Below are positions 46,003 to 60,236 of a stretch of 64,000 bases of DNA, one piece after another. Within the stretch, counting starts at the first letter, position 1. Every line of letters begins with the position of its first letter. The stretch is from Burkholderiales bacterium (GTDB taxonomy: Bacteria; Pseudomonadota; Gammaproteobacteria; Burkholderiales; SG8-39): NCBI GenBank assembly GCA_049802235.1, contig JBARMB010000107.1, forward strand, positions 103,874 through 167,873, written 5' to 3'. The notes under the pieces are model-generated. The model did no database searches, was not told the origin of the DNA, and saw only the letters and a program-made list of their open reading frames with translations. The translations under genes and the position numbers were made by a program.

Positions 46003-46037
46003 AAAAGCCCCGGAAGCTCGCCTCCGGGGCTTTTTTT
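46003..46037. terminator. bidirectional-looking rho-independent terminator
   Basis: AAAAGCCCCGGAAGCTCGCCTCCGGGGCTTTTTTT has an 8-bp GC stem flanked by an A-run and a T-run. It lies 26 nt downstream of the FadL-like gene on the minus strand. Confidence 0.6.
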
Positions 46038-46062: not shown

Positions 46063-47415
46063 CTAGTATCGCTTCTGCCAGGCAACGCCCACCGAGTACT
46101 CGCTCATGCTGATCGTTTCGGTTCCGCCAGCGCCAGCCCCCATGAACTGATCGAACAGGCTGGCCCCGGTCACGCTCTTGCGCGGCGCGTACATCGCCGC
46201 CATGGTGATATCCGAGTCGGATGCCACACCATAAGTGAAACCGGCGGTCCAGTGATCCTGAACGACACCCGGCGCGAGGATATTGAACGTCACGTCGGCG
46301 GAGCGGATCGGGTTCTTGCTCTTGCCGTAGCCGCCGCGCACCGTCAGCGCATCGCTCCACTGGTATTCGAGGCCCAGCTTGATGACGTTGACGTCCTGCC
46401 AGCCGAAGCCGCGGCCATCGGTCCCGCCGAGCGAGTTCGGGATTCCCGGATTTCCGGCAACGGCAAAGGTGCTCGAATTGCCCACGGACTTGACGCCGCT
46501 GTAATTGATTTGCTTGTAGTCCGCCAGAACGGTGAGCTTGGGTGCCGCCTTGAACGCGGCGCCGATGCTCCAGTTGGCCGGCATGTCGAAGCCGCCCTGC
46601 TCGGCAAACAAGCCGGCGTACTTGCTGAACTTGGACATGGCGATCTTGGTCGAGTACGCGGCGCCGATGCTCACGCTGTCGCTCAGCTTGCCCAGCCAGC
46701 CGAAGCGCACGCCCCAGCCTGTCGCGGTGTCGTAGCCGTTGTTGGTGAGCTTGGACGCATCGGTCGAGAATCCGGCGAAGCCCTGCAAGCCCTCGGCCTT
46801 GAAGCGCTGATAACCGAGAAGCGGCGAGATGCCGATGGACTGGTTCGGCATCATTTTCCACGACAGCGTGGGAGCGAAAATCAACTGCGACAAGTCGACA
46901 CCCAGATTGCCATCGCCGCACAACATGTTGTAGCTGGCCTTGGGGGTTCCGAGACCACCTGTCTGAAAGAAATTACATGTACCAGTACCGGCAGCACTCG
47001 TGATCTGCCCGCCCGGGTAATTGGTGTTCATGCCGCCGTTACCGTACACCGTCACGCCGAGCGAAAGATCCGGACTCAGCATTTTGTTGTAACCGAACTC
47101 GGGTATGAAAAACATCGTGTCGCCGCTGGTGACCGAACCGTCGAGTCCCACTGTCGCTGTCGGCGAGCCGGTACGCGCGGCATCACGGTCGGGGCTGAAC
47201 AGGTCGATGCCCAGATCGAAACGGTTGCCGACCCAGACCATCGTCGCCGGGTTGGTCGCACCGCCGAAGGTGTCGCCCGTATAAGCGGTCGTGGCGCCGG
47301 CCATGCCTTTCGACTTCATGCCGTAACCGTGGGAAAAATAGCCGTCGGTCGCCCCGGCCAGCCCCGGTGCGAGGCACGCCCCCATTACTGCCACTGCGAT
47401 TGCCTTGGATTTCAT
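46063..47415 (-). CDS. outer-membrane transport protein of the OmpP1/FadL/TodX family
   Basis: 450 aa with a signal peptide ([22 protein letters not shown]) and an N-terminal hatch-like GYFSHGYG. Alternating beta-strand sequence runs throughout and the C-terminal residue is aromatic. An AGGAGG site precedes the ATG. Confidence 0.8.
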
Positions 47416-47467
47416 CTTCCCCTCCTATCAGTTGAAAACTGCCCCCTCGCAAAGCAAACCCGAAATA

Positions 47468-48085
47468 TCAGATAAACAGGGAGACGTCGGCGTCCTTCGC
47501 CATCGGCAGGAAGGTCGCCGCGCCGCAGTACTCTTTTACTTCCGGAATAAAATCGTCGTGGGTGAAGCCGAACAGGTCCACCGTCATCTGGCAACCGATC
47601 AGGTTGACGCCGGATTCGATGCAGGCTTCGCGCAGCTCGGGAATGGTGGCGATGCCCTTGTTCTTGATGGTCTGGCGCATCAGCCCGCTCGCCATGGCCT
47701 CGAATCCCGGGGCAATCGCCTGCACCGCATTGGGTATGTTCCAACTGATGCCCTTGAACCAATCCGGCCCGAAGGGCATTTTCATCGGCATCGCCGGGTT
47801 GCCCAGCGGGCTGATTTTCAGGTCGCTCAGGTCCTTCCTCAGCAGCAGCAGGCCGTAGAAGGTGAAGAAAACCGACACGTTCCAGCCCAGCGCCGCAGCC
47901 GTGGAAGCGAGGATGAACGGCGGATACGCCCAGTCGAGCGTTCCGCGGGTGGCGATGATGGTCATGGAAGGCGTCTTCTTCGCCTCCCGCTCGGCCAGCT
48001 TCTGTTCGAGTCTTTCGGAAAGGATTTCGTCTATGCGCTGCTTGATCATTGCATCGATGGCAGCGGTGTCCGGCATGACTCCCAT
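47468..48085 (-). CDS. DsrE/DsrF/DrsH-like family protein (COG2210-type sulfur-carrier fold)
   Basis: ATG 48085 is preceded by GAAGGGGG. The 205-aa protein has TIIATRGTLDWAYPPFILASTAAALGW and the conserved Cys region LIGCQMTVDLFG, typical of DrsE_2/COG2210 proteins. Confidence 0.7.
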   Translation of the reverse strand: MGVMPDTAAIDAMIKQRIDEILSERLEQKLAEREAKKTPSMTIIATRGTLDWAYPPFILASTAAALGWNVSVFFTFYGLLLLRKDLSDLKISPLGNPAMPMKMPFGPDWFKGISWNIPNAVQAIAPGFEAMASGLMRQTIKNKGIATIPELREACIESGVNLIGCQMTVDLFGFTHDDFIPEVKEYCGAATFLPMAKDADVSLFI

Positions 48086-48366
48086 GACGTGTCCCCCTTC
48101 AATTGAGATTGATAAAGCAACCGTCCGCGACGGCTGTTGCGCCGTGACCACTCGCCGATCCGAACAGGTTCCGGTTCCGGTAGAGTATATTAATAGTTGG
48201 TGATTTTCTAATGAATCAGGCGAACATACAAGTCCCTGTGTGACCCGCCCTGAGGACTGGCGCGGAGCGGGCGATGATATCCTGTGGTGTCCCCTGATCC
48301 ACCAGCCAAAAAATTGATCGGGACATAGAGATTTTTTAAGACAGGACACCAGGCGCGACCACCCGT

Positions 48367-48981
48367 ATGACAGCAGAAAAGGAACGGTTCCTGCACGCGA
48401 TCGAGCGCTTCGACGCCGCCAATGGCGAAGACCCGAACCGGACGCTCGCCGACGGCCGGGAACAGCCGAAGGAATTGCTCTACGGCAGGCGTCTCAGCGC
48501 CATGCTGGAACGCTTCGCCCCGGAAGCACCGGAGGCGCTGCGGCTGGCGGTGCGCTGCCAGCATATCCAGCGCTGGCGCACACCGCGCGATACCTACCCC
48601 AGGACGCCGCTGGGTTATCAGCAGTGGCGGACGCAACTGATGAAATTCCACGCCGAGACTGCGGGCCGCATCCTGCGCGAGGTCGGTTACGAGGAAGCAA
48701 TGATCGGACGCGTCAAATCGCTGGTCCGCAAGGAGGGCCTGAAGCGCGACCCCGACTGCCAGACGCTCGAGGATGTGGTGGACCTTGTATTTCTGGAAAA
48801 CTATCTGGCGGATTTTGTCGCTTCCCATCCCGACTACGACGAGGCGAAATTCGCCGACATCCTGAATAAGACCTGGAAAAAGATGTCCACACGCGGCCAT
48901 GAGGCAGCGCTTTCGATGATCAAGCTGCCCGAGCACCTGCTGCCCGTCATCCACAGGGCGGTGCTCCCGGGCGATGGATGA
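48367..48981 (+). CDS. DUF4202-family protein
   Basis: 204 aa. The sequence (RCQHIQRWRTPRDTYPRTPLGYQQWRTQLMKFHA...) matches my recollection of DUF4202. Function is unknown. Confidence 0.6.
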   Translation: MTAEKERFLHAIERFDAANGEDPNRTLADGREQPKELLYGRRLSAMLERFAPEAPEALRLAVRCQHIQRWRTPRDTYPRTPLGYQQWRTQLMKFHAETAGRILREVGYEEAMIGRVKSLVRKEGLKRDPDCQTLEDVVDLVFLENYLADFVASHPDYDEAKFADILNKTWKKMSTRGHEAALSMIKLPEHLLPVIHRAVLPGDG

Positions 48982-49058
48982 TCCGCTGATGAATTGCGGA
49001 ACCGGGCCGGAATCGTCCGCTCTAACCTATCCTTGCCCGCTCCGGCGAAAATTACCCG

Positions 49059-50324
49059 ATGCGCACGACACGCAAAACAGCGTCCGACATGGATAAATCC
49101 CCGACGGTGCATCCGTTGCTCCGGCGCGACACGGCCGGCTCCGGGAGCGCCGTCTCGGGCAGCCGGCACGGTATCGAGGCACTGAAGATTCTTGCCGAAG
49201 CCGCGGGGACGGGAGAGCGCGATCCGGAGGCACTGCTCGGCCGCTCGCTTGAAATCATGATGCGGCTCGCAGGCGCCGCCGCCGGCATCGTACGCGTGGT
49301 AACCGGCGACGGCGCACACATGCGACTGGTGGCCGCGGCCGGCCTGCCTGCCGAGGTCGTGGAGCGCGAGCAGTTGGTCGATCTCGACTGCGGGGTTTGC
49401 GGCGCCGCCGTGAGCGACGATGCCGTGCACGCAGCGCACGACCTGTCGTTGTGTGCCGGGCGTGCCGGGGCCGCCGGATTGGCCCCCTACCGGGCAATCA
49501 CGGCGATCCCGCTCAAGCACCTCGACAAGGTGCTCGGCACATATACGCTTTTTTTTTCGGAGAAACGCGACCTTCCCGAAGATCTCGCGCTGCTGTTTCA
49601 ATCCATCATTGAGCACCTCGGCATGGCGCTCGAGCACGCACGCCTGCTGCGCGAGAACATGCGCATGACGCTCATGAACGAGCGCCAGATGATGGCGAAC
49701 GAGGTGCATGATTCGCTGGCGCAGACCATGGCCTACATGAACATCCGGCTGACGATGATGCTGGAAGCCGTCAACCACGATGAAAAACAGCAGGCGCTGA
49801 AATATGCCTCCGACACGCAGCAGGCGCTGGAGGGCGCGTATGCCGACCTGCGGGACCTTCTGTCGCAGTTCCGCAACCGGATGGATCCGCTCGGACTGGT
49901 GCACGCGCTGCAGGAGGTCGTTTCGCGATTCTACGACCGCACCGGCATCTCGCTCGATTTCGAAAACAGGGTCGCCGACCTGGACCTCACGGTGAATCAG
50001 GAAGCGCAGGTGTTTCACATCGTGCAGGAAGCGCTTGCGAACGTGGTGCGGCATTCCGGCGCAAAGCACGCCAGGCTGACGGTAGACCGGCGCGACGACC
50101 AGTACGAATTCACGGTCGAGGATGATGGACTCGGTTTTTTCGCCATGGGAAACAGGCTGGGCGAAATCGGGGAGCAAACGCACCTGCGGCACCATCTGGG
50201 CATCAACATCATGCGCGAACGTGCACAGAGCATGAACGGCAGAATCGAGATCGCCAATCTGCCGCAGGGAGGGGCCCGCATGCGGCTGGTGTTACCCGCG
50301 AACGCAAGCGGAGACGGGTCGTGA
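49059..50324 (+). CDS. GAF-domain sensor histidine kinase (HisKA_3/NarX-type)
   Basis: A cytoplasmic N-terminal GAF-like region is followed by H-box ANEVHDSLAQTMAY and an ATPase domain (QEALANVVRHSGA, DDGLGF, LGINIMRERA). The start could instead be ATG 49089. Confidence 0.8.
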   Translation: MRTTRKTASDMDKSPTVHPLLRRDTAGSGSAVSGSRHGIEALKILAEAAGTGERDPEALLGRSLEIMMRLAGAAAGIVRVVTGDGAHMRLVAAAGLPAEVVEREQLVDLDCGVCGAAVSDDAVHAAHDLSLCAGRAGAAGLAPYRAITAIPLKHLDKVLGTYTLFFSEKRDLPEDLALLFQSIIEHLGMALEHARLLRENMRMTLMNERQMMANEVHDSLAQTMAYMNIRLTMMLEAVNHDEKQQALKYASDTQQALEGAYADLRDLLSQFRNRMDPLGLVHALQEVVSRFYDRTGISLDFENRVADLDLTVNQEAQVFHIVQEALANVVRHSGAKHARLTVDRRDDQYEFTVEDDGLGFFAMGNRLGEIGEQTHLRHHLGINIMRERAQSMNGRIEIANLPQGGARMRLVLPANASGDGS

Positions 50325-50980
50325 GCGCACCGATACGGGTAATGGTGGTCGATGACCACACGCTGTTTCGCAAGGGGCTGGCGGAACTGCTTCAGCGTGC
50401 CGGCGTGATCGAGATCGTAGCCATCACCGGCAGTGCCGCAGAAGCCGAGTCGCTGGTGCGCAAGCTGGCGCCGGAAGTGCTGATCCTCGACCTGAATCTG
50501 CCGCCGCACGGAGGGCTCGCCCTGCTGCGCGATCTGCAACATTCAGGCTGGAGCGGCGCGACCCTGATCCTGACCGTAAGCGATTCGGAGGAAGACCTGG
50601 CAAATGCGCTGCGCCTGGGCGCGCGCGGTTACCTGCTGAAGGACATGGAGCCCGATGATCTGGCAGACGCCGTGGTGCGGGCGGCACGCGGGGAAACAGT
50701 GGTCGCCCCGGCGATGACCCTGAAGCTGGTCAACCTGCTGCAACCGGGCAAGGGCGGCAAACCGAAGGAAAGTCTTCTGAGCCAGCTGACCGACCGCGAA
50801 CGCCAGATCCTCGATTATCTCGCCAAGGGCCTGTCGAACAAGGCGATCGGGCGCACGCTCAACATCAGCCACGACACGGTGAAGCTGCACGTGCGCCACA
50901 TTCTCGCCAAGCTCAATCTGACATCGCGCGTCGAGGCAGCCGTGTTTGCGGTGGAACTTCGTTCCGCTCCTCAGAAATAG
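50321..50980 (+). CDS. NarL/FixJ (LuxR-type HTH) response regulator
   Basis: A receiver (IRVMVVDDH...LDLNLP) is followed by a C-terminal LuxR HTH ([36 protein letters not shown]). It overlaps the kinase gene by 4 bp. Confidence 0.88.
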
Positions 50981-51758
50981 CCGCCGCAGGCCGCCCCCGG
51001 GCCGGATCGAACCAGTCCAGCTTGCGCCGCAACTTGACGACCTCGCCGACGATGATCAGCGTGGGCGGCACGATGCGTGCCTGCTGCGCTCGCTGCGGGA
51101 GCGTCTTCAGCGTTCCCTCGACGACGCGTTGCCGAGGCGTCGTTCCCCGCTGCACCACGGCGGCCGGCGTGTCGGGGGAACATCCATGCGCGATGAGCTC
51201 GCGGCACAGCGTCGGCAACCCGAGCAGCCCCATATAGACGACCACCGTCTGGTGGGGACGTGCAAGCGCCCGCCAGTCGAGATCCATCCGTCCTTCCTTG
51301 AGATGGCCGGCAACCAGAATGCAGCTGCTGGCGTGGTCGCGGTGCGTGAGCGGGATGCCGGCATAGGCTGAAACGCCCGAGGCGGCGGTAATGCCCGGCA
51401 CGATTTCGAAAGGCACCCCGTTCTCGGCCAGCGCTTCGGCTTCCTCGCCGCCGCGCCCGAAAATGAACGGGTCACCGCCCTTCAACCTGACCACCAACTT
51501 CCCCTCAGAGGCGAGCCGCACCAGCAGCGCGTTGATCTGCCCCTGACTCATCGTATGGTTGCCGCGCTCCTTGCCGGCGTAGATGCGCTGTGCTTCGGAA
51601 CGAGCCAAATCAAGGATTTCAGGCGCAACCAGATGATCGTGGACGATCACATCGGCCCGCTGGATCAGGCGCAGCGCGCGCACGGTCAGCAGATCCGGAT
51701 CCCCCGGACCGGCACCGACCAGATACACCGCACCGCGTTGGCGTTCGGAATCGGTCAT
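50913..51758 (-). CDS. cobA: uroporphyrinogen-III C-methyltransferase (CobA/SUMT type)
   Basis: [15 protein letters not shown] and [18 protein letters not shown] motifs are present. Start is ATG 51758, or 51779 with an 11-bp overlap on dsrN. The 3' end overlaps the convergent regulator gene. Confidence 0.85.
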
Positions 51759-51768
51759 TGCCGCCTTC

Positions 51769-53175
51769 TCACGAGACACTCACAGTGTACCCGACGTGCG
51801 GGCTTCGGGCGGCGGCGCATTGCCGCACGAAGGCGACGAACCGTCCCGCCCAATCATATCCGGCGCAGGACCGAAAATGACTGTAGCAGGCGAGGACATT
51901 CTTGTGGACGATGCCGTCGTGCGCCCCGTCGGCGCCGTGGCCGCGCAACACCCGGTACGAAAATACGGTGGCGGGATCCAGGTGCTCCAGCCCGGAATAA
52001 TGGAACTCGTGCGCCGGAATTTCCCCCGCCGGCGCCTGACCGGCGGCCCGCCAGGGATGTGCGGATGTTTCCTGCAGGCGCACATAGCCGCGTCCGACGG
52101 GCTTGTCGTGCATGACGATGTCGGCGGGCAGGGCGCCGACCATGCGGTGCGCCTTGCCTCGCCAGCTGATCGAGCGCGCCAGATACATCAGGCCGCCGCA
52201 TTCCGCGTAGACGGGAAGGCCGGCTTCGATCGCCTGCAGCAGATCGTGGCGCAGCCCGGCATTCGCCTCCAGTTCGCCGGCAAGTCGTTCCGGGAAACCG
52301 CCGCCGATGAATACGCCGTCCACCGCTGGCAGGCGCCGATCGGACAGTGTATCGAAAGGCACGATCACGGCGCCGGCGCGTTCCAGCGCTTCCAGATCGT
52401 CGTGGTAGTAAAACCCGAAGGCCCGATCCCGCGCCAGCCCGATGCGCACCGGTTCCGCAGTGGCGCTGCTCTGCAGCGGTGGCGCGACCGGCGGAGGCGT
52501 CGCCGTAAGGGCGAGCAGCCGGGCGATATCCACTTGCAGGCCGATGACTTCGGCGAGCCTGGCGATATGCCGTTCGGCTGCGGTTGATTCGTTCGCGGGC
52601 ATCAGCCCGAGATGACGTTCCGCGATCGTCAGAGCAGGGTCCTCGGCCACCGCCCCTATTACCGGGACGTCGGTGTAGTGCTCGATTACCGCCCGCAGCT
52701 TCGCTTCATGCCGGGCGCCGCCCAGCCGGTTCAGGATGACACCGGCGATGCGGATTGCCGGATCGAATGCCTGATAGCCGAGGATGAGCGGTGCAATGCC
52801 CCGGGTCATGCCGCGCGCATCGAGCACCAGCACCACCGGCAACTCGAGCAGCCGCGCCAGCGCGGCATTGCTGTTGCCGCCGTCGAGGTCCAGCCCGTCG
52901 TAGAGCCCTTTGTTGCCCTCGACCAGGCAAACGTTCGCAGTCGCTGCGTGACGCGCAAACTGCAGGCGCAATTCCTCACCCGTTGACAGATTGAAATCGA
53001 GATTCCGGCAAGGACGCCCGCTGGCAAGCCCGAGCCAGATAGGATCGATGTAATCGGGCCCCTTCTTGAACGGCTGCACCGTCAGCCCCCTGCGCCGCAG
53101 TGCGGCAGCAAGCCCGATGCTGACCATGGTCTTGCCCGAGGACTTGTGCGCGGCCGAAATCAGGAAGCGGTGCAT
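51769..53175 (-). CDS. dsrN: DsrN, cobyrinate a,c-diamide synthase homologue (siroheme amidase)
   Basis: ATG 53175 ([16 protein letters not shown]...). A CobB/CbiA-type P-loop and a C-terminal glutamine amidotransferase part ([10 protein letters not shown]) are present. It sits after dsrP. Confidence 0.85.
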
Positions 53176-53195
53176 GGACGCTGCCCCGGGCCGGA

Positions 53196-54401
53196 TCAAT
53201 GTTGCCCGGCCGCAGCCTCGGCTTGATCGAGACGTCGGGGAAGGAACGGCAATACCCGCAGCGCGATGGCTACCAGGGTCGCGGCCAGAGCCACGCCGCC
53301 GATCCCGAGCAGGGCCTCGACCATGCTCGGCGCATAGGGGTGAATCTCGCCGTCGAAGAAGCTCGACGATTCCTGCATGCCGGGAAAAAGCACCAGCGGC
53401 CAGGCCTGCGCGCCGATGATGGTGACGTACATCTGCGCCAGGCCTCCGAGCGCCACGAGCGCGGCGGCGGCCACGAGCGCGGCCCGCGATCTGGCGGTCG
53501 CGGGATGGAATACCAGCACCAGCGGCAGCAAACCGCCCAGAACGATCTGGCCGCCCCAGAAAAGGAATGTGTAGACCCCGCCATCGAGAAGAATGAAGCG
53601 CTCGATACCGGCATGCCGCGCGAGATAGAGCTTGGTCAAATGGAAGATCGCGATGAAGTAAAGCGACGCGCCGACGAAGATGCCGAGCAGATTCCCGAGG
53701 CGCAAAAACAGTTCCCCGCCTAGCGGCAGGCCGTCAAAGCGACTGATCGCGACCAGCACCAGAATGAAAAGAGCCGTTCCGTACGCAAACGAGAATGCGA
53801 TGAACATCGGCGCGAGAAGCGCCGAGTCGTAGGCCTGACGCGCTACCAGGAAGCCGAAGATCGAACCCGTGCCGGTGGTCAGCACCAGCCGCCACACGAA
53901 AGACAGGAATCCGGCGAGGGTGACAAGACGGTTCAGGCCGGGATCGAGCATGAACCACAGGTACACCGCGACGACGGCGAAAAACCCGGTGTAGAGAAAA
54001 ATATTCCAGGCGAAAATCGACTGGAAGTTGAAATGCGTCATCGCCACGATCAGCCGCTCGGGCCGGCCGAGATCAAGCATCAGGACAGCCAGCCCCCCCG
54101 CGAGCAGCGCGACCGAAAGCAGCCCCGACAGCGGCGCAAGCGGCTTGTACAGTGTTCTCCCGAACACCGACGCGATGGAGGCAATGTTGAGCGCCCCCGA
54201 TGCGGAAACGATCAGAAATACGGCAAATACATGCGGCATTCCCCAGACGACCTGGTTATCCATGCCGGTGACGATATGCCCTTGCGTTTCCATGTGCAGG
54301 AACGATGCGAAGCCGAGCGCAAGCGGCACGGCCAGGCACGCAAGCAGCCACCAGAACCGGCGACCCGGGCCGTCAAGCCGTCTGAATTCCGCTGCCTGCA
54401 T
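53196..54401 (-). CDS. dsrP: DsrP, NrfD/PsrC-like integral membrane quinone-interacting subunit
   Basis: ATG 54401, 1 nt after the dsrO stop. It is a polytopic membrane protein of about 400 aa in the conserved dsrMKJOP position. Confidence 0.85.
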   Translation of the reverse strand: MQAAEFRRLDGPGRRFWWLLACLAVPLALGFASFLHMETQGHIVTGMDNQVVWGMPHVFAVFLIVSASGALNIASIASVFGRTLYKPLAPLSGLLSVALLAGGLAVLMLDLGRPERLIVAMTHFNFQSIFAWNIFLYTGFFAVVAVYLWFMLDPGLNRLVTLAGFLSFVWRLVLTTGTGSIFGFLVARQAYDSALLAPMFIAFSFAYGTALFILVLVAISRFDGLPLGGELFLRLGNLLGIFVGASLYFIAIFHLTKLYLARHAGIERFILLDGGVYTFLFWGGQIVLGGLLPLVLVFHPATARSRAALVAAAALVALGGLAQMYVTIIGAQAWPLVLFPGMQESSSFFDGEIHPYAPSMVEALLGIGGVALAATLVAIALRVLPFLPRRLDQAEAAAGQH

Positions 54402-54402
54402 T

Positions 54403-55143
54403 TCAGATTCCCTGGTAGCGCACACCCGGATCGAGGCCGAGATCGGCGCGTAACTGCATCGATGCTTCCCGGGCCACGCGCCGGGCAATCTCGCTCGAAG
54501 GATCGTTCAAGTCGCCGAACAACATCGCGCCATGTCCGGCCTTTTGGCAGGCCTCGACGCACGCCGGCTCGCCATCGCGGTCGATGCGATGGACGCACAG
54601 CGTGCAGCCCTCGACGCAGCCCTTGCCCCGCGGAACCTCGGGTTTCTGGTCGTCCAGATTCTCGTGCACGAACGAGCGCGCCTTGTAGGGACAGGCCATC
54701 ACGCAGTAGCGGCAGCCGATGCAGGTGTGCCGGTCGACAAGCACGATGCCGTCTGCGCGCTTGAACGATGCCCCGGTGGGGCAAACATCGACACAGGGCG
54801 GATCGGCGCAATGCTGGCACATCACCGGCGCGGCATGGGTGCGTCCGGAGCGCATGTCCTTCAGCTCGACCTTGCGGATCCACTGGGCATCGGTGCGGGG
54901 ATGCCCGGTATCCTTGAGACCGTTCTCCGTAGCACACGCTTTCACGCAGTCGTCGCAGCCGCTGGCGCACTTGTCCGCGTCGATCAGAAGGCCCCAGCGG
55001 ACCTTGGCAGATGCCGCCTCCTCCGGCGCGCGCGCTCCGGCGATCTCGATCAGCCGGATGCCGGGCGCGAGCGCCGCACCGCCCAGGGCCGCCGCCGAGA
55101 TGGCCAGAAACCCGCGCCGGCTGACGCTTGCGTCTTCGCTCAT
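54403..55143 (-). CDS. dsrO: DsrO, periplasmic 4Fe-4S ferredoxin-like subunit with Tat signal
   Basis: ATG 55143 has an ATGA overlap with the dsrJ stop. The Tat motif SRRGFL and several CxxCxxCxxxC-type clusters are present. Confidence 0.85.
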   Translation of the reverse strand: MSEDASVSRRGFLAISAAALGGAALAPGIRLIEIAGARAPEEAASAKVRWGLLIDADKCASGCDDCVKACATENGLKDTGHPRTDAQWIRKVELKDMRSGRTHAAPVMCQHCADPPCVDVCPTGASFKRADGIVLVDRHTCIGCRYCVMACPYKARSFVHENLDDQKPEVPRGKGCVEGCTLCVHRIDRDGEPACVEACQKAGHGAMLFGDLNDPSSEIARRVAREASMQLRADLGLDPGVRYQGI

Positions 55144-55586
55144 GGCTTCGCTGCCGCGGCGAGCCTCGGTCTCGAGGCGTGGCATTCGAAGCAGTCCGGC
55201 GCGATGCCCGCGTAGGCGTGGCAGCTCTGGCAGAAGCCCTGCTCACCCAGTACGCTGCCGGTTTTTTTGCTCGCATGGCACTCGACGCAAGCGCTCAGGC
55301 TGTATTGACGCGTGCGGATGCCCTCGTGCACGGTCCTGTCGCGCTGATGCTTGAGCATTTCCGGATGCTCGCGCCGCATGACTTGCGTGTCCGCCACGCA
55401 CTGCCCCGGCCTCTCGATGGCGATGGTTGGCTTCGGCGTTCGGTCGGCGGCGAACGCAAGCGCAGGCAGCAGCAGCACGAGCAACGCCAATCCCTCCCAC
55501 GCCCCCTTTTTCAAAGCGAGGGGCGGCGTTTGCCCCTTTTCCGCAAAAAGGGGGCCGCACGAAGCGCGGGGGGATTTTCGGCGCAT
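55140..55586 (-). CDS. dsrJ: DsrJ, trihaem cytochrome c
   Basis: Three CxxCH motifs are present (CVECH, CQSCH, CFECH), together with an N-terminal hydrophobic anchor. ATG 55586 is 1 nt after the dsrL stop. Confidence 0.8.
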   Translation of the reverse strand: MRRKSPRASCGPLFAEKGQTPPLALKKGAWEGLALLVLLLPALAFAADRTPKPTIAIERPGQCVADTQVMRREHPEMLKHQRDRTVHEGIRTRQYSLSACVECHASKKTGSVLGEQGFCQSCHAYAGIAPDCFECHASRPRLAAAAKP

Positions 55587-55587
55587 G

Positions 55588-57549
55588 CTACTCGCCCAGC
55601 CCCATCTTGATGTAGCCGGTCGGGCACACGTCCATGCAGATGTGGCAGCCGATGCAGCGGTCGTAGTCGGTATACACGTAGCGACCAATGGTCGATTGCG
55701 CCTTTGGCGTCTTTTTCACCGCGGTCTGCGGGCAATAGACGACGCAGTTGTCGCACTCGAAGCACAGCCCGCAACTCATGCAGCGCTTGGCCTCGGCCTG
55801 CGCCTGCGCCTCGGCGAGCGCGACGATGCGTTCCTCGAAGTTGCCGAGCGCGCTTTTTTCGTCGAGCGTGATGGTCTTGCGCCGGTTGCGCGGGGTGAAC
55901 GGGAAATGGCCGAGAAACAGCTCGGTGTGCGGAATCACGTAGCGGTCGGAGCGGTTCTCGTAGTTGTGCACGGCGACGTTGGCGCTGTCGGTGCCGCGCA
56001 GCGGCTCGTGGGTTTCCCCAACCTTGAGGCCCTTTTCCACCAGCTTGCGCATGAGATCGAAGTGATGCACGTCGATCTTCGGGCGCTTCTCCAGTTCTTC
56101 GCCGGCCAGGAAGCGGTCGATGCCCTCGGCGGCGATGGCGCCGTGGCCGATTGCCGTGGTCAGCAGGTGCGGCCGCACGATGTCGCCGCCGACGAACACG
56201 CCCTGCTTGCCGGTGACCTGATAATTCTTGTCCGCGGCGACCGCGCCCTTGCCGTTGTCGAATTCCTCCAGGCCGGAGAAATCCACCGCCTGGCCAACGG
56301 CCGAGACGATGAGGTCCGCGGCGATATCCTCCTCGGTGCCGTCTATTTTCTTGATTTCGAGCCGCCCGCCGACGAATTTAGCTTCGCATCGGGCCACGCG
56401 CAGCGCTGTGGCGCGGCCGTTGGCCGAGCGCACCACCGCGACCGGCATCAGGCCCCCGCGGATGGCGATGCCCTCGGCCCGCGCCTGCTCGATCTCGTGC
56501 TTGTTGGCCTGCATCTTGTCGATCGCAAATACGGAGGTAAGCGTCACTTCGGCGCCCTGCTTGGCGGAAATTTCGGCGACGTCGTGCGCCATGTGACCGG
56601 CGATGGCGTGCTCCGGGCGGTCCGTCTCGTGCGTCTGCTCGATGTGGCCGAGGCGCCGCGCCACCGTGGCGACGTCGATCGACGTATCGCCGCCGCCCAC
56701 CACCACGACGCGCTTGCCGACGTGGCGCATGCGGCCGTCGTTGAAGGCGCGCAGGAACGCGGTCGCAGTGACGATGTTGGGCGCTTCATTCCCCGGGCAG
56801 GGCAGCGCACGGCCCGCCTGCGCGCCGAGACCGAGAAACACGGCATCGAACCCGGCGCGGATCTGCTCCATCGTGACATGCGTGCCGACGCGGCAGTTCA
56901 TGCGCGTTTTCACGCCGAGATCGAGAATGCGCCTGATCTCCGCGTCGAGCACCTCGCGCGGCGTGCGGAACCCCGGAATGCCGTAGCGCATCATGCCGCC
57001 GAGCTCGGCGTGCTCATCGAAGATGGTGACCTCATGTCCTTTGCGCGCGAGCTGGTAGGCCGCGGACAGTCCGGCCGGTCCGCCGCCGATCACGGCGACC
57101 TTCCTGCCGGTCGTGGCTGCAGGCTTCTCGTAAACGAAGTTTTTCGCGATCGCGTTGTCGCCGATGAAGTGCTCGACCGAATTGATGCCGACGAAATCCT
57201 CGACCTGGTTGCGGTTGCAGCCGGATTCGCACGGCGCCGGGCAGACGCGCCCCATCACCGAAGGAAAGGGATTGGCGTCGGTGAGGCGGCGGAAGGCGTA
57301 CTCCTGCCAGCTCATCGGATTCTGGCCCGCGGGCGGCTTCTCGATGCCGCGCACGATGTTGAGGTAGCTGCGGATGTCCTCGCCCGCGGGGCAGCTGCCC
57401 TGGCAGGGCGGCGTCGCCTGCACGTAGGTCGGGCACTTGTGCGAGTGATCGGCGTCGAAAATCTTGTCCTGCCAGCGTTTCCATTGGGCATCGCCTTCGC
57501 GGAAACGGCGGAAGGTCAGGTTGGTGGATTGTTCGGTCGCGTTTGACAT
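55588..57549 (-). CDS. dsrL: DsrL, NAD(P)H:acceptor oxidoreductase (GltD-like with C-terminal ferredoxin domain)
   Basis: 653 aa with N-terminal Fe-S Cys motifs, two dinucleotide-binding folds (VAVIGGGPAGLSAAYQLA; VVVVGGGDTSIDVA) and a C-terminal 2x[4Fe-4S] ferredoxin motif (CIGCHICMDVCP). Confidence 0.85.
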   Translation of the reverse strand: MSNATEQSTNLTFRRFREGDAQWKRWQDKIFDADHSHKCPTYVQATPPCQGSCPAGEDIRSYLNIVRGIEKPPAGQNPMSWQEYAFRRLTDANPFPSVMGRVCPAPCESGCNRNQVEDFVGINSVEHFIGDNAIAKNFVYEKPAATTGRKVAVIGGGPAGLSAAYQLARKGHEVTIFDEHAELGGMMRYGIPGFRTPREVLDAEIRRILDLGVKTRMNCRVGTHVTMEQIRAGFDAVFLGLGAQAGRALPCPGNEAPNIVTATAFLRAFNDGRMRHVGKRVVVVGGGDTSIDVATVARRLGHIEQTHETDRPEHAIAGHMAHDVAEISAKQGAEVTLTSVFAIDKMQANKHEIEQARAEGIAIRGGLMPVAVVRSANGRATALRVARCEAKFVGGRLEIKKIDGTEEDIAADLIVSAVGQAVDFSGLEEFDNGKGAVAADKNYQVTGKQGVFVGGDIVRPHLLTTAIGHGAIAAEGIDRFLAGEELEKRPKIDVHHFDLMRKLVEKGLKVGETHEPLRGTDSANVAVHNYENRSDRYVIPHTELFLGHFPFTPRNRRKTITLDEKSALGNFEERIVALAEAQAQAEAKRCMSCGLCFECDNCVVYCPQTAVKKTPKAQSTIGRYVYTDYDRCIGCHICMDVCPTGYIKMGLGE

Positions 57550-57558
57550 CGATTTCTC

Positions 57559-59052
57559 CTACTTCGGCCCGAGCCGGATTGCGTTGGACACGAGCTGATG
57601 AACCCCGCCCACCATGCTCATCTTGAACTTGTAATAGGGCAGGACTTTGGTGAACTGCGCCTTGCAGATGGCGCAGATGGTCGCCATGAAATTGACGCCG
57701 TCGCTATCGACGACGGACTTCAGCGCTTCCATGCGCGGCAGCGCGCCCTTGACGCGCAGATCGAGCAGTTCGTCGGTCAGCAGCCCGCCGCCGCCGCCGC
57801 AGCAGAAGGTCTTCTCACGGATGCTGTCGGCGTGCATTTCAACGAACTTGTTCGCCACCGCGCGGATGATGGCGCGCGGGATCTCGAACTGGCCGCCGGG
57901 CATGTCGCCCATGCGCGAGGCGCGCGCCACGTTGCAGGAGTCGTGGAACGTGACCACGTACTGGTCGTTGGCGCTTTTGTCGAACTGGATCGCGCCGCGC
58001 TGAATCAGATCGTAAGTCAATTCGCAGATATGCTGCGGCACCGGGTAGCGCGAATCGAGGAAATCGAACGGGCCGATCAGCGTGTTCCAGAAGCTGTAGG
58101 CGACGCGCCAGGCATGGCCGCATTCGCCGACGACGATGCGCTTCACGCCTAGGTCGAGCGCCGCCTCGCGCACGCGCATGGCGATCGACTTCATCTGGCC
58201 GTAGTTGCCGATGAACAGGCCGAAATTGCCGGCCTCGGAGGCATGCGTCGAGAGCGTCCAGCGGATGCCGGCGGCGTGGAACACCTTGGCGTAGCCGATC
58301 AGGCTGAACACGTGCGGCTCGGCGAAGAAGTCGGCCGAAGGCACGACTACCAGCACTTCGGCGCCCTTTTCGTTGAGCGGCAGGCGCACGTCCTGGCCGG
58401 TTTCCTCCTTGAGATCTTCCTCGATGCTCTGCAGGGTGTTCTCGAGCGCCGGGCCGGGAAGGCCGAGGTTGTTTCCGATCTTGTGTACCTTGCCGATAAT
58501 CTCGTTGGAGTACTTCTGCCCCACGCCGATGGAGTCCATGATCTCCTTCGCGGCCATGGTGATTTCGGCGGTGTCGATGCCGTAGGGGCAGAAAACCGAG
58601 CAGCGTCGGCATTCGGAACACTGGTTGAAATAGGTGTTCCAGTCGTCGAGTACTTCCTTGGTGAGGTCTTCGGCGCCGACCAGCTTGGGGAACAGCTTGC
58701 CCGACCAGGTGAAGTAGCGGCGGTAGACTTTGCGCAGCAGGTCCTGGCGCGCGACCGGCATGTTCTTGGGGTCGCCCGTGCCGAGGAAATAGTGGCACTT
58801 GTCGGTGCAGGCGCCGCAGTGGACACACGCATCGAGATAGACCTTCAGCGAACGGTACTTGCCCAGCAGCTCGCCAAGCTTGAAGATCGCCTTGTCCTGC
58901 CAACCCTCGACGAGCTCACCGGGGAAGCCGAGCGCCTGCTGCATCTGCGCGTTGGCGACATACGGCTTGCTCGCCGCCATGGCGCCGGCCTGCAGGATCG
59001 GAATGACCGGATACGGCTTCAGCGGCGGCGCGATGACTTCGGCAGTGGCCAT
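57559..59052 (-). CDS. dsrK: DsrK, HdrD-like catalytic Fe-S subunit
   Basis: 497 aa with ferredoxin-type clusters (CVHCGACTDKC; CSECRRCSVFCP) and a C-terminal CCG region (FCCGGGGG). Confidence 0.88.
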   Translation of the reverse strand: MATAEVIAPPLKPYPVIPILQAGAMAASKPYVANAQMQQALGFPGELVEGWQDKAIFKLGELLGKYRSLKVYLDACVHCGACTDKCHYFLGTGDPKNMPVARQDLLRKVYRRYFTWSGKLFPKLVGAEDLTKEVLDDWNTYFNQCSECRRCSVFCPYGIDTAEITMAAKEIMDSIGVGQKYSNEIIGKVHKIGNNLGLPGPALENTLQSIEEDLKEETGQDVRLPLNEKGAEVLVVVPSADFFAEPHVFSLIGYAKVFHAAGIRWTLSTHASEAGNFGLFIGNYGQMKSIAMRVREAALDLGVKRIVVGECGHAWRVAYSFWNTLIGPFDFLDSRYPVPQHICELTYDLIQRGAIQFDKSANDQYVVTFHDSCNVARASRMGDMPGGQFEIPRAIIRAVANKFVEMHADSIREKTFCCGGGGGLLTDELLDLRVKGALPRMEALKSVVDSDGVNFMATICAICKAQFTKVLPYYKFKMSMVGGVHQLVSNAIRLGPK

Positions 59053-59056
59053 GGCG

Positions 59057-59800: not shown

Positions 59801-59825
59801 TGCGAAAAACGCTGATCCGGATCAC

Positions 59826-59896
59826 CTCCCGCTTTCGCGGGAGGAGCGGCTGCGCGTCCGGAATGACGTCTCACTTGGCCGCGGGTTTCACCCGCG
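59826..59896 (-). other. two GC-rich hairpins between dsrC and dsrM
   Basis: On the minus strand, CGCGGG-TGAAA-CCCGCG (59880..59896) abuts the dsrC stop. CTCCCGC-GAAA-GCGGGAG (59826..59843) follows. Neither has a clear T-run. Confidence 0.4.
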
Positions 59897-59897
59897 C

Positions 59898-60236
59898 TCA
59901 GACGCAACCGGTCGGCTTGGGCAGGCCGGCAATCTTGCAGGCCTGTTTCGCCGGTCCATAGGGAAACAGCTCGTAGAGATACTGGCTGTTGCCTTTTTCG
60001 GAGCCGAGCTTCTTGCCGATCGCCTTGGTGAGCACCCGCACCGCCGGTGCGATCTGAAATTCGTTGTAATACTCGCGCAGGAAATTGATGACTTCCCAGT
60101 GATTCGGAGTCATTTCGAGATTCTCCTGCTTGGCAATGGTGCCGGCGATGTCTTCGTTCCAGTCCGAGAGGTTGACGAGATACCCTTCCTCGTCCGTCTC
60201 GATCGTCTTGCCGCCTACTTCGATAGCCATATGCAC
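59898..60236 (-). CDS. dsrC: DsrC, sulfur-transfer substrate protein of DsrAB
   Basis: 112 aa. The C-terminal arm reads ...KQACKIAGLPKPTGCV and carries both conserved cysteines. Confidence 0.92.
   Translation of the reverse strand: MHMAIEVGGKTIETDEEGYLVNLSDWNEDIAGTIAKQENLEMTPNHWEVINFLREYYNEFQIAPAVRVLTKAIGKKLGSEKGNSQYLYELFPYGPAKQACKIAGLPKPTGCV

What the first reader, a model, noticed from the sequence alone, without database searches (positions are those of the whole stretch)
46063..48085. Cytoplasmic DsrE-like sulfur-carrier-fold protein in an operon with a FadL/TodX-type outer-membrane channel, beside the dsr cluster
The DsrE/DrsH-like gene (conserved Cys in LIGCQMTVDLFG) ends 52 nt before the start of a FadL-family outer-membrane protein gene. 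A strong AGGAGG site lies between them and no terminator does; a terminator follows only after the channel gene. FadL/TodX channels specialise in moving hydrophobic molecules across the outer membrane by lateral release. Elemental sulfur (S8) and long polysulfanes are hydrophobic. How sulfur oxidisers move zero-valent sulfur across the outer membrane is poorly understood. The pairing with a sulfur-relay-fold protein, 3 kb from dsrN...A, makes a role in uptake or release of hydrophobic sulfur an attractive hypothesis. The alternative is ordinary fatty-acid or aromatic uptake with a fortuitous neighbour.
Basis: inference. Interest (0 to 1): 0.6.

Follow-up and report, generated by a model that had tools for sequence, protein, structure and literature searches.

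The report
Outer-membrane channel wired to sulfur relay
A FadL/TodX-type outer-membrane channel for greasy molecules is co-transcribed with the sulfur-carrier protein DsrE2, and the same pairing recurs inside the sulfur-oxidation gene clusters of about 70 other species, which makes it a concrete, testable candidate for the unknown route by which water-insoluble elemental sulfur crosses the outer membrane.

Summary
A 205-aa DsrE2-type gene (47468-48085) is followed after 52 nt, with AGGAGG and no terminator, by a 450-aa FadL-family gene (46063-47415). A strong hairpin terminator comes next.

The pairing is not fortuitous.
- In 80 species carrying the closest relatives of the channel, dsrE2 lies immediately upstream on the same strand in 62 of 77 loci with enough flank.
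- It lies within 6 kb on the same strand in 70 of 77.
- Conversely, 47 of 64 metagenome loci of the 205-aa DsrE2 clade have a FadL-like gene directly downstream.
- The common unit is (rhd)-tusA-dsrE2-channel, embedded in soeABC-like, sHdr/LbpA-lipoate, dsr or sox clusters. Thiobacillus denitrificans and T. thioparus carry it.

The channel has a signal peptide, a 14-strand barrel, the FadL NPA hatch motif and a clade-specific Cys pair. It is closer to TodX than to FadL.

The substrate is inferred, not shown. I favour hydrophobic zero-valent sulfur (about 0.5). The main rival is lipoate/octanoate uptake for LbpA.

The only precedent I found is a preprint suggestion for Chlorobaculum CT2230. I found no report of the dsrE2 linkage. 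I rate it a new variant of a known kind, interest about 0.7.

The parts
47468..48085 (-). dsrE2-type sulfur-carrier gene (205 aa). Residues 1-40 are a helical N-terminal extension. The DsrE-like core carries Cys165 (active-site position) and Cys155.
   Evidence: Translation. Pfam DrsE_2 2e-46. NCBIfam DsrE2 209.5 vs 210 bits. Cys165 97% and Cys155 68% conserved in 72 homologues. PDB profile hits 2QS7 (labelled DsrE2B) and 3MC3 (DsrE3A). The same 205-aa gene call appears on other assemblies.
47416..47467 (-). 52-nt spacer between dsrE2 and the channel gene, with the Shine-Dalgarno sequence AGGAGG (47421-47426) 5 nt before the ATG. No terminator and no promoter-like site.
   Evidence: Sequence. 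Promoter/terminator scan. The median spacer in 62 other species is about 72 nt (range 21-366).
46063..47415 (-). FadL/TodX-family outer-membrane channel gene (450 aa). The signal peptide spans residues 1-22 (47350-47415). Features: NPA hatch motif at N55-P56-A57 (mature 33-35), a 14-strand barrel, and a Cys147/Cys166 pair in the long loop between strands 3 and 4.
   Evidence: Pfam Toluene_X 61.8 bits. PDB profile: TodX 1e-26, TbuX 2e-18, CymD 1e-15, FadL 1e-4. AF2 model pLDDT 85.9 with 14 strands. Foldseek top hits FadL/TodX with TM 0.65-0.71. Conservation over 104 linked homologues.
46003..46034 (-). Intrinsic terminator hairpin (14-bp stem) followed by UUUUCAUUU; end of the two-gene unit.
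   Evidence: RNA fold. Sequence.
48086..48366 (.). Divergent intergenic region (281 nt) between dsrE2 and DUF4202. It presumably holds the promoter and operator of the pair and includes an AT-rich stretch around 48180-48215.
   Evidence: Sequence. No sigma-70 consensus was found here, so promoter placement is an inference.
48367..50980 (+). Divergently transcribed DUF4202 gene, GAF-HisKA_3 histidine kinase and LuxR-type response regulator. This is a candidate regulator of the pair (context, not proven).
   Evidence: Pfam. The same kinase/regulator pair (65-73% identity) lies divergently next to (tusA)-dsrE2-channel in L077, L090 and L098, and more distantly in L068.
50913..63789 (-). dsr operon (context): dsrA, B, E, F, H, C, M, K, then an unassigned stretch of about 1.8 kb, a dsrO-like Fe-S gene, P, N, and a cobA-like methylase. 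This is the sulfur-oxidising system the relay presumably feeds.
   Evidence: tblastn with L085 dsr genes. Pfam NrfD, CobB-like amidase and TP_methylase.

Best explanation
The two genes form a small operon that belongs to the dissimilatory sulfur-oxidation machinery. It is the local version of a widespread module, (rhd)-tusA-dsrE2-channel.

Shown by computation: the channel is a FadL/TodX-type, hatch-plugged 14-strand barrel, and it is genetically coupled to the cytoplasmic sulfur relay.

Inferred mechanism:
1. The channel gives hydrophobic zero-valent sulfur (cyclo-S8 or uncharged polysulfanes) a way past the lipopolysaccharide barrier.
2. As in FadL/TodX, the sulfur would bind in the extracellular loops and pass the hatch. 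It would then leave through the barrel wall into the membrane or periplasm. Because this is passive diffusion, it could run in either direction, for uptake of external S0 or release of excess S0.
3. The clade-specific cysteine pair in the long loop may be only a structural disulfide, or it may open S8 rings as a thiol.
4. In the periplasm the sulfur becomes polysulfide or persulfide. In some species it may be handled by the periplasmic SCP2-like or 304-aa proteins encoded just downstream.
5. It is then imported across the inner membrane by an unknown carrier.
6. In the cytoplasm it is accepted as protein persulfide by Rhd/TusA/DsrE2. In this organism it would then go to DsrEFH-DsrC-DsrAB. In others it would go to sHdr-LbpA, with sulfite oxidised by a SoeABC-like enzyme.

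Co-transcription would match the capacity for sulfur entry to the capacity for carrying it.
For: (1) Operon anatomy.

(2) Conserved linkage. dsrE2 is immediately upstream on the same strand in 62 of 77 species loci, and within 6 kb on the same strand in 70 of 77. In the reverse test, 47 of 64 loci have a FadL-like gene directly downstream.

(3) The pair persists through different contexts:
- soeABC-like-(rhd)-tusA-dsrE2-channel, including T. denitrificans DSM 12475 and T. thioparus DSM 505;
- lbpA-lipS1-slpl-lipT-lipS2-dsrE2-channel;
- a divergent csoR-like gene next to dsrE2-channel;
- dsrE2-tusA-channel in Nitrospirae;
- next to dsrAB or soxY.

(4) Even where dsrE2 is not adjacent, the channel closes an sHdr-LbpA cluster.

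(5) FadL-family identity: Pfam, model and Foldseek, and an NPA motif at least 97% conserved. The family transports hydrophobic molecules (established knowledge, reflected in the PDB entry names).

(6) The channel is closer to the monoaromatic-hydrocarbon channels TodX/TbuX/CymD (1e-26 to 1e-15) than to the long-chain fatty-acid channel FadL (1e-4). That fits a compact ring-shaped hydrophobic substrate such as S8 (inference).

(7) Downstream genes in 27 of the 80 species loci encode signal-peptide proteins. One of them is SCP2-like, a hydrophobic-ligand fold, with four conserved Cys.

(8) Literature: DsrE2's function is 'unclear' and the import route of sulfane sulfur is 'not yet clear'. A FadL-family protein in the sulfide-repressed regulon of C. 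tepidum was independently proposed to carry hydrophobic sulfur chains.
Against: - There is no direct evidence on the substrate: no expression, binding or mutant data.
- C147 is conserved in only 76% and C166 in 91% of linked channels, so a catalytic thiol role is not universal.
- The sample of 80 loci is the set most similar to the query out of more than 583 relatives. Where the sulfur-linked clade ends is therefore unknown.
- Many of these bacteria live mainly on soluble sulfide or thiosulfate, for which no such channel is needed.
- In this window tusA is absent, and the DsrE2 protein falls just under the NCBIfam DsrE2 cut-off.
- In about 8 loci the channel gene follows lipS2 rather than dsrE2, which fits the lipoate rival.
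Confidence: 0.5

Rival explanations
1. The channel takes up free lipoate or octanoate (amphipathic C8 acids). These would feed the lipoate:protein ligase sLpl and the LipS1/LipS2 sulfur-insertion enzymes that mature the LbpA proteins of the sHdr pathway. On this reading the link to dsrE2 is indirect and arises from shared membership of sHdr clusters.
For: - FadL is the archetypal fatty-acid channel.
- In 19 of 80 species loci the lipoate-assembly genes (lbpA, lipS1, slpl, lipT, lipS2) lie in the same string as the channel.
- In about 8 loci the channel directly follows lipS2: L010/L169, L014, L026, L028, L029, L033, L038 and L168.
- A periplasmic SCP2-like lipid-binding-fold protein follows the channel in some loci.
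Against: - The association is much stronger with dsrE2 (70 of 80) and tusA (51 of 80) than with lip genes (15-19 of 80).
- Many loci, including this window, L085, the Nitrospirae loci and the Thiobacillus soeABC-rhd-tusA-dsrE2-channel loci, have no lip gene within 6 kb.
- The channel is closer to TodX than to FadL.
- C8 acids normally need no FadL channel in E. coli (established knowledge, from memory).
Confidence: 0.13
2. The channel imports hydrophobic organic sulfur compounds rather than inorganic S0. Candidates are organic polysulfanes, thiols, dimethyl (poly)sulfides and CS2-type compounds. Their sulfane sulfur would then enter the TusA/DsrE2 relay.
For: - It shares the linkage evidence of the main explanation.
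- The nearest solved relatives carry small uncharged organics such as toluene and cymene.
- Thiobacillus species are known to use some volatile organosulfur compounds (memory).
Against: - None of the genes I identified in the flanks looks like an organosulfur-degrading enzyme. The flanks were only partly annotated: several recurrent neighbour clusters had no Pfam match, and the panel held sulfur-related queries only.
- The clade occurs in many taxa (Gallionellaceae, Nitrospirae, Acidiferrobacterales) that are not known for such metabolism.
Confidence: 0.12
3. The channel has no transport role specific to sulfur. It could be a general hydrophobic-molecule or envelope-maintenance protein, for example one that copes with membrane stress caused by sulfur chemistry. 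Alternatively it rides along as the last gene of a conserved operon.
For: - Family annotation is generic, 'long-chain fatty acid transport protein'.
- A few close relatives (L017, L023) have no sulfur gene within 6 kb.
- FadL-fold proteins also serve non-transport roles. PorV scored weakly, and the only non-FadL/TodX proteins above the porins were components of the Bacteroidetes BAM complex.
Against: The adjacency survives repeated rearrangement of everything around it, in two phyla and several proteobacterial orders. It also holds with channel sequences diverged to 27-30% identity. That is hard to explain without a functional tie to the relay genes.
Confidence: 0.15

Closest known systems
TodX (Pseudomonas putida), TbuX (Ralstonia pickettii), CymD: monoaromatic-hydrocarbon channels of the FadL family
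   Same: They are the best sequence matches among solved structures (profile E 1e-26, 2e-18, 1e-15). They share the fold: a 14-strand barrel with an N-terminal hatch and Foldseek TM 0.60-0.71. The hatch NPA motif is present.
   Different: - Identity is only about 20%.
- They are encoded in aromatic-degradation operons, whereas this one sits with sulfur-relay and sulfur-oxidation genes.
- This clade has a conserved Cys pair in a long loop. In the aligned TodX sequence (3BRZ) those two positions are Ile and Phe.
Escherichia coli FadL (long-chain fatty-acid channel)
   Same: Same family and fold. The NPA motif falls at mature positions 33-35, exactly as in FadL; the PDB entries for the N33A, P34A and delta-NPA mutants are listed.
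   Different: The sequence relation is very distant (profile E 1e-4, matching only about 80 residues; 15-16% identity). There are no fatty-acid degradation genes nearby.
rhd-tusA-dsrE2 sulfur-trafficking cluster of Allochromatium vinosum (Rhd_2599, TusA Alvin_2600, DsrE2A Alvin_2601)
   Same: Same protein families and the same association with Dsr/sHdr systems. Most related loci here carry (rhd)-tusA-dsrE2 in that order. The T. denitrificans and L085 DsrE2 proteins pass the NCBIfam DsrE2 model.
   Different: - Descriptions of that cluster in the papers I could read mention no outer-membrane gene.
- The window lacks tusA and rhd next to dsrE2.
- Its DsrE2 has a 40-aa N-terminal extension and scores 0.5 bit under the DsrE2 cut-off.
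- I could not check whether A. vinosum itself has a channel gene next to Alvin_2601.
Chlorobaculum tepidum CT2230 (FadL-family outer-membrane protein, co-transcribed with CT2231)
   Same: A FadL-family protein tied to sulfur oxidation. There the tie is a shared operator motif with the sox and dsrC promoters and repression by sulfide. The authors suggested transport of hydrophobic sulfur chains (preprint 10.1101/172254).
   Different: The link there is regulatory, not an operon with TusA/DsrE2, and it is in a different phylum.
Thiol-bearing outer-membrane protein postulated for S8 activation in Acidithiobacillus (Rohwerder and Sand model; from memory, not checked here)
   Same: That model postulates an outer-membrane protein whose cysteine thiols mobilise S8 as persulfide. 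The channel clade here has a conserved Cys pair in a long loop that I place on the extracellular side from the strand/turn pattern.
   Different: No protein family was assigned in that model. The Cys pair here may simply be a disulfide, and its conservation is incomplete (76% and 91%).

Membership tests
FadL/TodX outer-membrane channel family (Pfam PF03349 Toluene_X) | Sequence match above the curated family threshold | tested here: met
   61.8 bits against a cut-off of 29.7, although it covers only residues 170-415. A profile of 27 homologues hits TodX over positions 28-418 at E 1e-26.
FadL/TodX outer-membrane channel family (Pfam PF03349 Toluene_X) | Secreted protein forming a monomeric 14-strand beta-barrel | tested here: met
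   The signal peptide ...LAGA|TDG is read from the sequence. The AF2 model has pLDDT 85.9 and 14 strands with short turns alternating with long loops. The top 24 Foldseek hits are all FadL, TodX, TbuX, CymD or the P. aeruginosa FadL homologue.
FadL/TodX outer-membrane channel family (Pfam PF03349 Toluene_X) | N-terminal hatch domain with the conserved NPA motif | tested here: met
   N55-P56-A57 (mature 33-35) is invariant in 27 homologues and at least 97% conserved in 104. Residues 23-64 precede the first strand in the model.
FadL/TodX outer-membrane channel family (Pfam PF03349 Toluene_X) | Lateral opening in the barrel wall (strand kink) for release of the substrate | tested here: inconclusive
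   The model shows a break in the second strand (residues 97-101) next to invariant P105. Coordinates could not be inspected, so an opening is neither shown nor excluded.
FadL/TodX outer-membrane channel family (Pfam PF03349 Toluene_X) | Transports hydrophobic molecules | not testable with these tools
   This needs binding or uptake assays.
DsrE2 sulfur carrier (NCBIfam NF047629; DsrE2A group of Liu et al. 2014) | Sequence match above the curated equivalog threshold | tested here: not met
   209.5 bits against a cut-off of 210, a miss of 0.5 bit. Pfam DrsE_2 is clearly met (158 bits vs 25). Channel-linked homologues in L085 and T. denitrificans score 282 and 263 bits. The window protein is best described as a sister subclade of canonical DsrE2 (57% identical to L085 DsrE2) with a 40-aa N-terminal extension.
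DsrE2 sulfur carrier (NCBIfam NF047629; DsrE2A group of Liu et al. 2014) | Conserved active-site cysteine, plus a second conserved cysteine in the DsrE2A subgroup | tested here: met
   Cys165 (LIGCQMT) is 97% conserved. Cys155 is present here, 68% conserved over 72 homologues and at least 90% within the 205-aa clade. The definition of the subgroup comes from PMC4175335.
DsrE2 sulfur carrier (NCBIfam NF047629; DsrE2A group of Liu et al. 2014) | Genetic linkage with Dsr or sHdr systems and with tusA (and rhd) | tested here: inconclusive
   In the window, dsr is 2.8 kb away but no tusA or rhd was found anywhere in the 64 kb. In related loci tusA is adjacent in 51 of 80, and dsr, shdr, lbpA or soe genes flank most.
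DsrE2 sulfur carrier (NCBIfam NF047629; DsrE2A group of Liu et al. 2014) | Binds and transfers sulfane sulfur as a persulfide | not testable with these tools
   This has not been demonstrated even for the prototypes. Archaeal DsrE2B reacted with no sulfur compound tested, and the function of A. vinosum DsrE2A 'remains unclear'.
Two-gene operon (co-transcription of dsrE2 and the channel gene) | Same strand, short spacer, no internal terminator or promoter, terminator after the second gene, and gene order conserved across species | tested here: met
   (62 species, median spacer about 72 nt). Transcript data were not available.

The most novel reading that the evidence does not exclude
This FadL/TodX-like clade is the long-sought outer-membrane gateway for elemental sulfur in Gram-negative sulfur oxidisers. 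It would let cyclo-S8/polysulfanes pass the lipopolysaccharide barrier in either direction. Its conserved loop cysteines would help open S8 rings. Periplasmic SCP2-like or 304-aa partners would carry the sulfur onward. DsrE2, whose function has been unknown for over a decade, would be the dedicated cytoplasmic acceptor of this import route. If so, a FadL-family channel would have an inorganic substrate for the first time.
Probability: 0.3. Interest if true: 0.85.

Novelty: new variant of a known kind. Interest (0 to 1): 0.7.

Why it matters
How water-insoluble elemental sulfur gets across the outer membrane is an old open question in the sulfur cycle. So is how sulfane sulfur reaches the cytoplasmic Dsr and sHdr enzymes. 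Recent work from the field still calls the import route 'not yet clear' and the role of DsrE2 'unclear'.

This finding supplies a specific protein family for the outer-membrane step. It also gives a strong comparative-genomic reason to believe that family is part of the pathway. The same module occurs in cultured organisms, Thiobacillus denitrificans DSM 12475 and T. thioparus DSM 505, so the hypothesis can be tested directly by knockout, expression and binding experiments.

It would also widen the known substrate range of FadL-family channels. It would improve annotation as well: these genes are currently labelled 'long-chain fatty acid transport protein' and 'peroxiredoxin family protein'. 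It adds further candidates to the pathway: periplasmic SCP2-like and 304-aa proteins, a CsoR/CstR-like regulator, and a GAF-kinase/LuxR two-component system.

Tried and rejected
- AlphaFold model of the window DsrE2, made to judge whether its hydrophobic stretch is a membrane anchor. The model was poor (pLDDT 42; the alignment is shallow, at least 77% identity) and I did not use it. Only the secondary-structure order (long N-terminal helix, then strand-helix-strand) is compatible with a soluble DsrE fold.
- Foldseek against AFDB, to find cultured-organism relatives and possibly CT2230. The library was unavailable.
- The Stockdreher et al. 2014 paper on rhd-tusA-dsrE2. It is not held, so I could not check whether its gene maps show an outer-membrane gene.
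- Nine literature searches combining FadL/outer membrane/fatty-acid transport with DsrE2, tusA, sHdr, dsrAB, Thiobacillus, elemental or zero-valent sulfur. The only relevant hit was the C. tepidum preprint. An Acidithiobacillus proteome paper treats FadL as a fatty-acid transporter under acid stress.
- A weak NCBIfam PorV/PorQ hit (24.5 bits vs cut-off 90) and a weak CdrL_M hit on the DsrE2 N-terminus (19.6 vs 27). I dismissed both as below threshold.
- The idea that the pair is the tail of the dsr operon. I rejected it because three opposite-strand genes intervene.
- The longest ORF for dsrE2 (293 aa, GTG at 48349). I rejected it in favour of the 205-aa ATG start, because homologues and independent gene calls are 205 aa.
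- The 5-bp hairpin inside the end of dsrE2 as an internal terminator. I rejected it because it is weak, lies inside the coding sequence and is at the chance level.
Full report
**1. What is in the window**

The stretch 46063-48085 holds two genes, both on the minus strand.
- The upstream gene (47468..48085, 205 aa) matches Pfam DrsE_2 (2e-46). It scores 209.5 bits on the NCBIfam equivalog 'sulfur carrier protein DsrE2', half a bit under the cut-off of 210.
- The downstream gene (46063..47415, 450 aa) matches Pfam Toluene_X, the OMPP1/FadL/TodX family (61.8 bits against a cut-off of 29.7). Its N-terminus reads as a signal peptide...LAGA|TDGYF.
- The spacer is 52 nt, with AGGAGG 5 nt before the ATG.
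- The scan found no promoter-like site and no convincing terminator between the genes.
- A 14-bp GC-rich hairpin followed by UUUUCAUUU comes right after the channel gene (46003-46034). It is followed by a tRNA-Ala(CGC) gene with its own promoter-like site.
- Gene callers used on two other assemblies of the same or a 99%-identical organism produce the same 205-aa and 450-aa models. NCBI labels the 99%-identical copy a Burkholderiales MAG.

**2. Surroundings in the window**

Beyond the dsrE2 start lie three plus-strand genes, divergent from dsrE2 and convergent with dsr: DUF4202, a GAF-HisKA_3 histidine kinase and a LuxR-type response regulator. After them comes the end of a minus-strand dsr operon: a cobA-like methylase, dsrN, dsrP, a dsrO-like Fe-S gene, an unassigned stretch of about 1.8 kb, then K, M, C, H, F, E, B and A up to 63789.

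The pair is thus a separate transcription unit 2.8 kb from the operon's end. On the other side are the tRNA, an amino-acid permease, ridA, recG, ubiA and ubiD. No tusA, rhd or soeABC homologue was found in the 64 kb.

**3. Is the pairing meaningful?**

- The channel protein has thousands of homologues. The best 120 are 57-99% identical and come mostly from betaproteobacterial and Nitrospirae metagenome bins.
- A first look at a 70%-identical homologue showed a 205-aa DrsE_2 gene 29 nt upstream, in an otherwise unrelated neighbourhood.
- I then fetched the 80 best loci from one-genome-per-species contigs and searched them for DsrE2.
- Of 77 loci with enough upstream sequence, 62 have dsrE2 immediately upstream on the same strand (spacer 21-366 nt, median about 72).
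- Three have it immediately downstream and five have it 1-5.6 kb upstream on the same strand. Seven have none within 6 kb.
- In the reverse direction, I fetched 80 metagenome loci with the window's DsrE2. Of 64 with room downstream, 47 have a FadL-like gene directly downstream and one has it directly upstream.
- Some of these channel sequences are only 27-30% identical to the window's, while their DsrE2 is still 66-70% identical.

**4. What surrounds the pair elsewhere**

I clustered the neighbouring ORFs, ran Pfam on representatives and obtained Pfam-annotated contigs. I then used a panel of the annotated proteins to write gene-order strings for all loci. The recurring patterns are:
- soeA-soeB-soeC-like (molybdopterin oxidoreductase, Fe-S subunit, DmsC/NrfD anchor)-(rhd)-tusA-dsrE2-channel. 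Thiobacillus denitrificans DSM 12475 and T. thioparus DSM 505 have this form.
- lbpA-(dsrE3)-lipS1-slpl-lipT-lipS2-dsrE2-channel, or tusA-dsrE2-lbpA-lipS1-slpl-lipT-lipS2-channel. This places the pair at the end of the sHdr/LbpA lipoate-assembly set.
- A divergent CsoR-family gene, often with tusA, next to dsrE2-channel.
- dsrE2-tusA-channel in Nitrospirae.
- tusA-dsrE2-channel directly beside dsrAB or soxY.

Over the 80 species loci the channel co-occurs within 6 kb with the following genes:

| Gene | Loci (of 80) |
|---|---|
| dsrE2 | 70 |
| tusA | 51 |
| soe-like genes | 13-16 |
| lipoate-set genes | 15-19 |
| csoR-like gene | 9 |
| soxY | 8 |
| dsrA | 7 |

Only two loci with full flanks (L017, L023) show no sulfur gene. 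Even a locus without an adjacent dsrE2 (L010/L169) has the channel as the gene after shdr-lbpA-dsrE3-lbpA-lipS1-slpl-lipT-lipS2.

The pair, or more generally (rhd)-tusA-dsrE2-channel, has been kept together while everything around it was rearranged. This holds in Nitrosomonadales/Burkholderiales, Rhodocyclales, Acidiferrobacterales and Nitrospirae. A 'fortuitous neighbour' can be rejected.

One caveat applies. The 80 loci are the closest of more than 583 relatives found, so I do not know where the sulfur-linked clade ends.

**5. The channel protein**

- A profile of 27 homologues matches solved TodX (1e-26), TbuX (2e-18) and CymD (1e-15) much better than E. coli FadL (1e-4, about 80 residues only).
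- The AlphaFold model is confident (pLDDT 85.9). It shows an N-terminal segment (23-64) followed by 14 strands, with short turns alternating with long loops.
- Foldseek returns only FadL, TodX, TbuX, CymD and the P. aeruginosa FadL homologue as its top 24 hits (TM 0.57-0.68 relative to the query length, 13-21% identity).
- The NPA motif of the FadL hatch is invariant (N55-P56-A57) and at least 97% conserved over 104 linked homologues. With cleavage after residue 22 it falls at mature positions 33-35, the same numbers as in FadL (the N33A, P34A and delta-NPA entries).
- Two cysteines, C147 and C166, lie in the long loop between strands 3 and 4. C147 sits in a short helix. They are invariant among close homologues, and 76% and 91% conserved over the wider set.
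- In the aligned TodX sequence those two positions are Ile and Phe, not Cys.
- I could not inspect coordinates. The lateral opening and the Cys-Cys distance therefore remain unchecked.

**6. The DsrE2 protein**

- Cys165 (LIGCQMT) is 97% conserved. Cys155 is 68% conserved overall and at least 90% within the 205-aa clade. This fits the 'two conserved cysteines' of the DsrE2A group.
- The 205-aa clade is very abundant in metagenomes and is usually mislabelled 'peroxiredoxin family protein'.
- It differs from canonical 156-170-aa DsrE2 by a charged N-terminal extension of about 40 residues.
- Channel-linked DsrE2 proteins of L085 and T. denitrificans pass the NCBIfam model clearly (282 and 263 bits).
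- There is no signal peptide, so the protein is cytoplasmic.
- Whether DsrE2 touches the inner membrane is disputed in the literature. My own model was too poor to help.
- According to the field's own papers, the function of DsrE2 'remains unclear'. How sulfane sulfur is imported is 'not yet clear'.

**7. Other recurrent partners**

- Directly downstream of the channel, 21 species loci encode a 304-aa protein with no family match. Six encode a 170-aa SCP2-like protein.
- Both have signal peptides. The SCP2-like protein has four conserved cysteines. SCP2 is a hydrophobic-ligand-binding fold, which again points to a hydrophobic cargo.
- The divergent CsoR-family protein keeps two cysteines (at least 95% conserved) and has Glu where copper-sensing CsoR has His. 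From memory, that is the fingerprint of the persulfide sensor CstR. I did not test this.
- The window has neither of the downstream genes nor the CsoR-like gene.
- The window's divergent GAF-kinase/LuxR pair recurs in the same position in L077, L090 and L098 (65-73% identity), and more distantly in L068.

**8. Interpretation**

Shown: the operon anatomy, the family and fold of both proteins, and a deep, rearrangement-resistant genetic coupling of the channel to the TusA/DsrE2 sulfur relay and to the Dsr, sHdr and Soe-like oxidation systems.

Inferred: the substrate. FadL-family channels exist to move hydrophobic molecules past the lipopolysaccharide layer. The one hydrophobic molecule central to this pathway is zero-valent sulfur (cyclo-S8 or uncharged polysulfanes). 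The closer resemblance to channels for compact aromatic rings than to the fatty-acid channel fits a ring-shaped S8.

I therefore favour a passive conduit for hydrophobic sulfur, usable for uptake of external S0 and possibly for release of excess S0. It would be followed by periplasmic conversion, inner-membrane import by an unknown carrier, and acceptance by Rhd/TusA/DsrE2 (confidence about 0.5).

The rivals are:
- Uptake of lipoate/octanoate for LbpA maturation (about 0.13). The channel follows lipS2 in some loci, but the link to dsrE2/tusA is much stronger and most loci have no lip genes.
- Uptake of hydrophobic organosulfur compounds (about 0.12).
- A role not specific to sulfur (about 0.15).

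**9. Comparison with what is known, and novelty**

Both proteins belong to known families. The channel passes every FadL-family test I could run. The DsrE2 misses its curated equivalog threshold by 0.5 bit and is best called a DsrE2 sister clade.

The rhd-tusA-dsrE2 cluster is established in the literature. None of the papers I could search or read mentions an outer-membrane gene attached to it.

The general idea that a FadL-type protein might carry hydrophobic sulfur was voiced once, for Chlorobaculum tepidum CT2230, on regulatory grounds.

The conserved operon with the sulfur relay, its breadth, the clade-specific cysteines and the periplasmic partners appear to be undescribed.

I classify the finding as a new variant of a known kind: a FadL-family clade in a new functional context, probably with a new class of substrate.

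**10. Verdict**

Interest is about 0.7. The finding turns a long-standing open question, how elemental sulfur crosses the outer membrane and what DsrE2 is for, into experiments that can be done in cultured Thiobacillus strains.

Noticed in passing
window 45854-45929 (-), promoter-like site 45973-45945 (-): A tRNA-Ala(CGC) gene lies directly after the terminator of the channel gene. It has its own sigma-70-like site (TTGTCT-17-TACAAT), so it appears to be transcribed independently.
   Followed up: partly
window 48367-50980 (+); also L077, L090, L098, L068: A DUF4202 gene plus a GAF-HisKA_3 kinase and a LuxR-type regulator are divergent from dsrE2. The kinase/regulator pair recurs in the same divergent position next to (tusA)-dsrE2-channel in at least three other organisms (65-73% identity). 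It may regulate the pair or dsr. DUF4202 itself was not seen in the other loci.
   Followed up: partly
L012, L015, L041, L053, L056, L064, L069, L081, L082, L167 and 16 metagenome loci (e.g. L095, L111, L121): A CsoR/RcnR-family repressor gene lies divergently upstream of dsrE2-channel. It has two cysteines at least 95% conserved and Glu at the position of CsoR's copper-binding His. This resembles the persulfide sensor CstR (comparison from memory) and would imply persulfide-responsive control of the pair.
   Followed up: partly
L169:11451-11963, L167:11326-11850 and 4 further species loci; L168:11447-12361 and 20 further species loci: Two uncharacterised periplasmic proteins are encoded directly after the channel gene in other species. 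One is a 170-aa SCP2-like protein with four conserved cysteines. The other is a 304-aa protein with no family match. They are candidate periplasmic carriers of the channel's cargo, and both are absent from this window.
   Followed up: partly
window 47966-48085 (-), residues 1-40 of the DsrE2-like protein: The 205-aa DsrE2 clade carries a charged, predicted-helical N-terminal extension that canonical 156-170-aa DsrE2 lacks. It gives a weak, sub-threshold hit to CdrL_M. Its role is unknown.
   Followed up: no
window 50913-63789 (-): The dsr operon reads dsrABEFHCMK, then about 1.8 kb that I did not assign, a dsrO-like gene, dsrP and dsrN. It ends with a cobA-like tetrapyrrole methylase that overlaps dsrN by 11 nt. 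No tusA, rhd or soeABC was found in the 64-kb window, so the TusA partner of this DsrE2 must be encoded elsewhere.
   Followed up: partly
L051:1455-4316 and downstream: One Hydrogenophilus bin has two FadL-like genes in tandem after rhd-tusA-dsrE2. A few close relatives of the channel (L017 Sulfuricella, L023 Thiobacillus) sit in loci with no sulfur genes, which suggests paralogues with possibly different roles.
   Followed up: no
L011, L065, L070 (record titles): Contigs carrying the betaproteobacterial-type dsrE2-channel pair are labelled Terriglobia, Enterobacteriaceae and Candidatus Levyibacteriota bins. These are probably binning errors rather than real taxonomic spread.
   Followed up: no
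(database names): Public annotations call the channel 'long-chain fatty acid transport protein' and the DsrE2 clade 'peroxiredoxin family protein'. Both labels are likely misleading for these clades.
   Followed up: no
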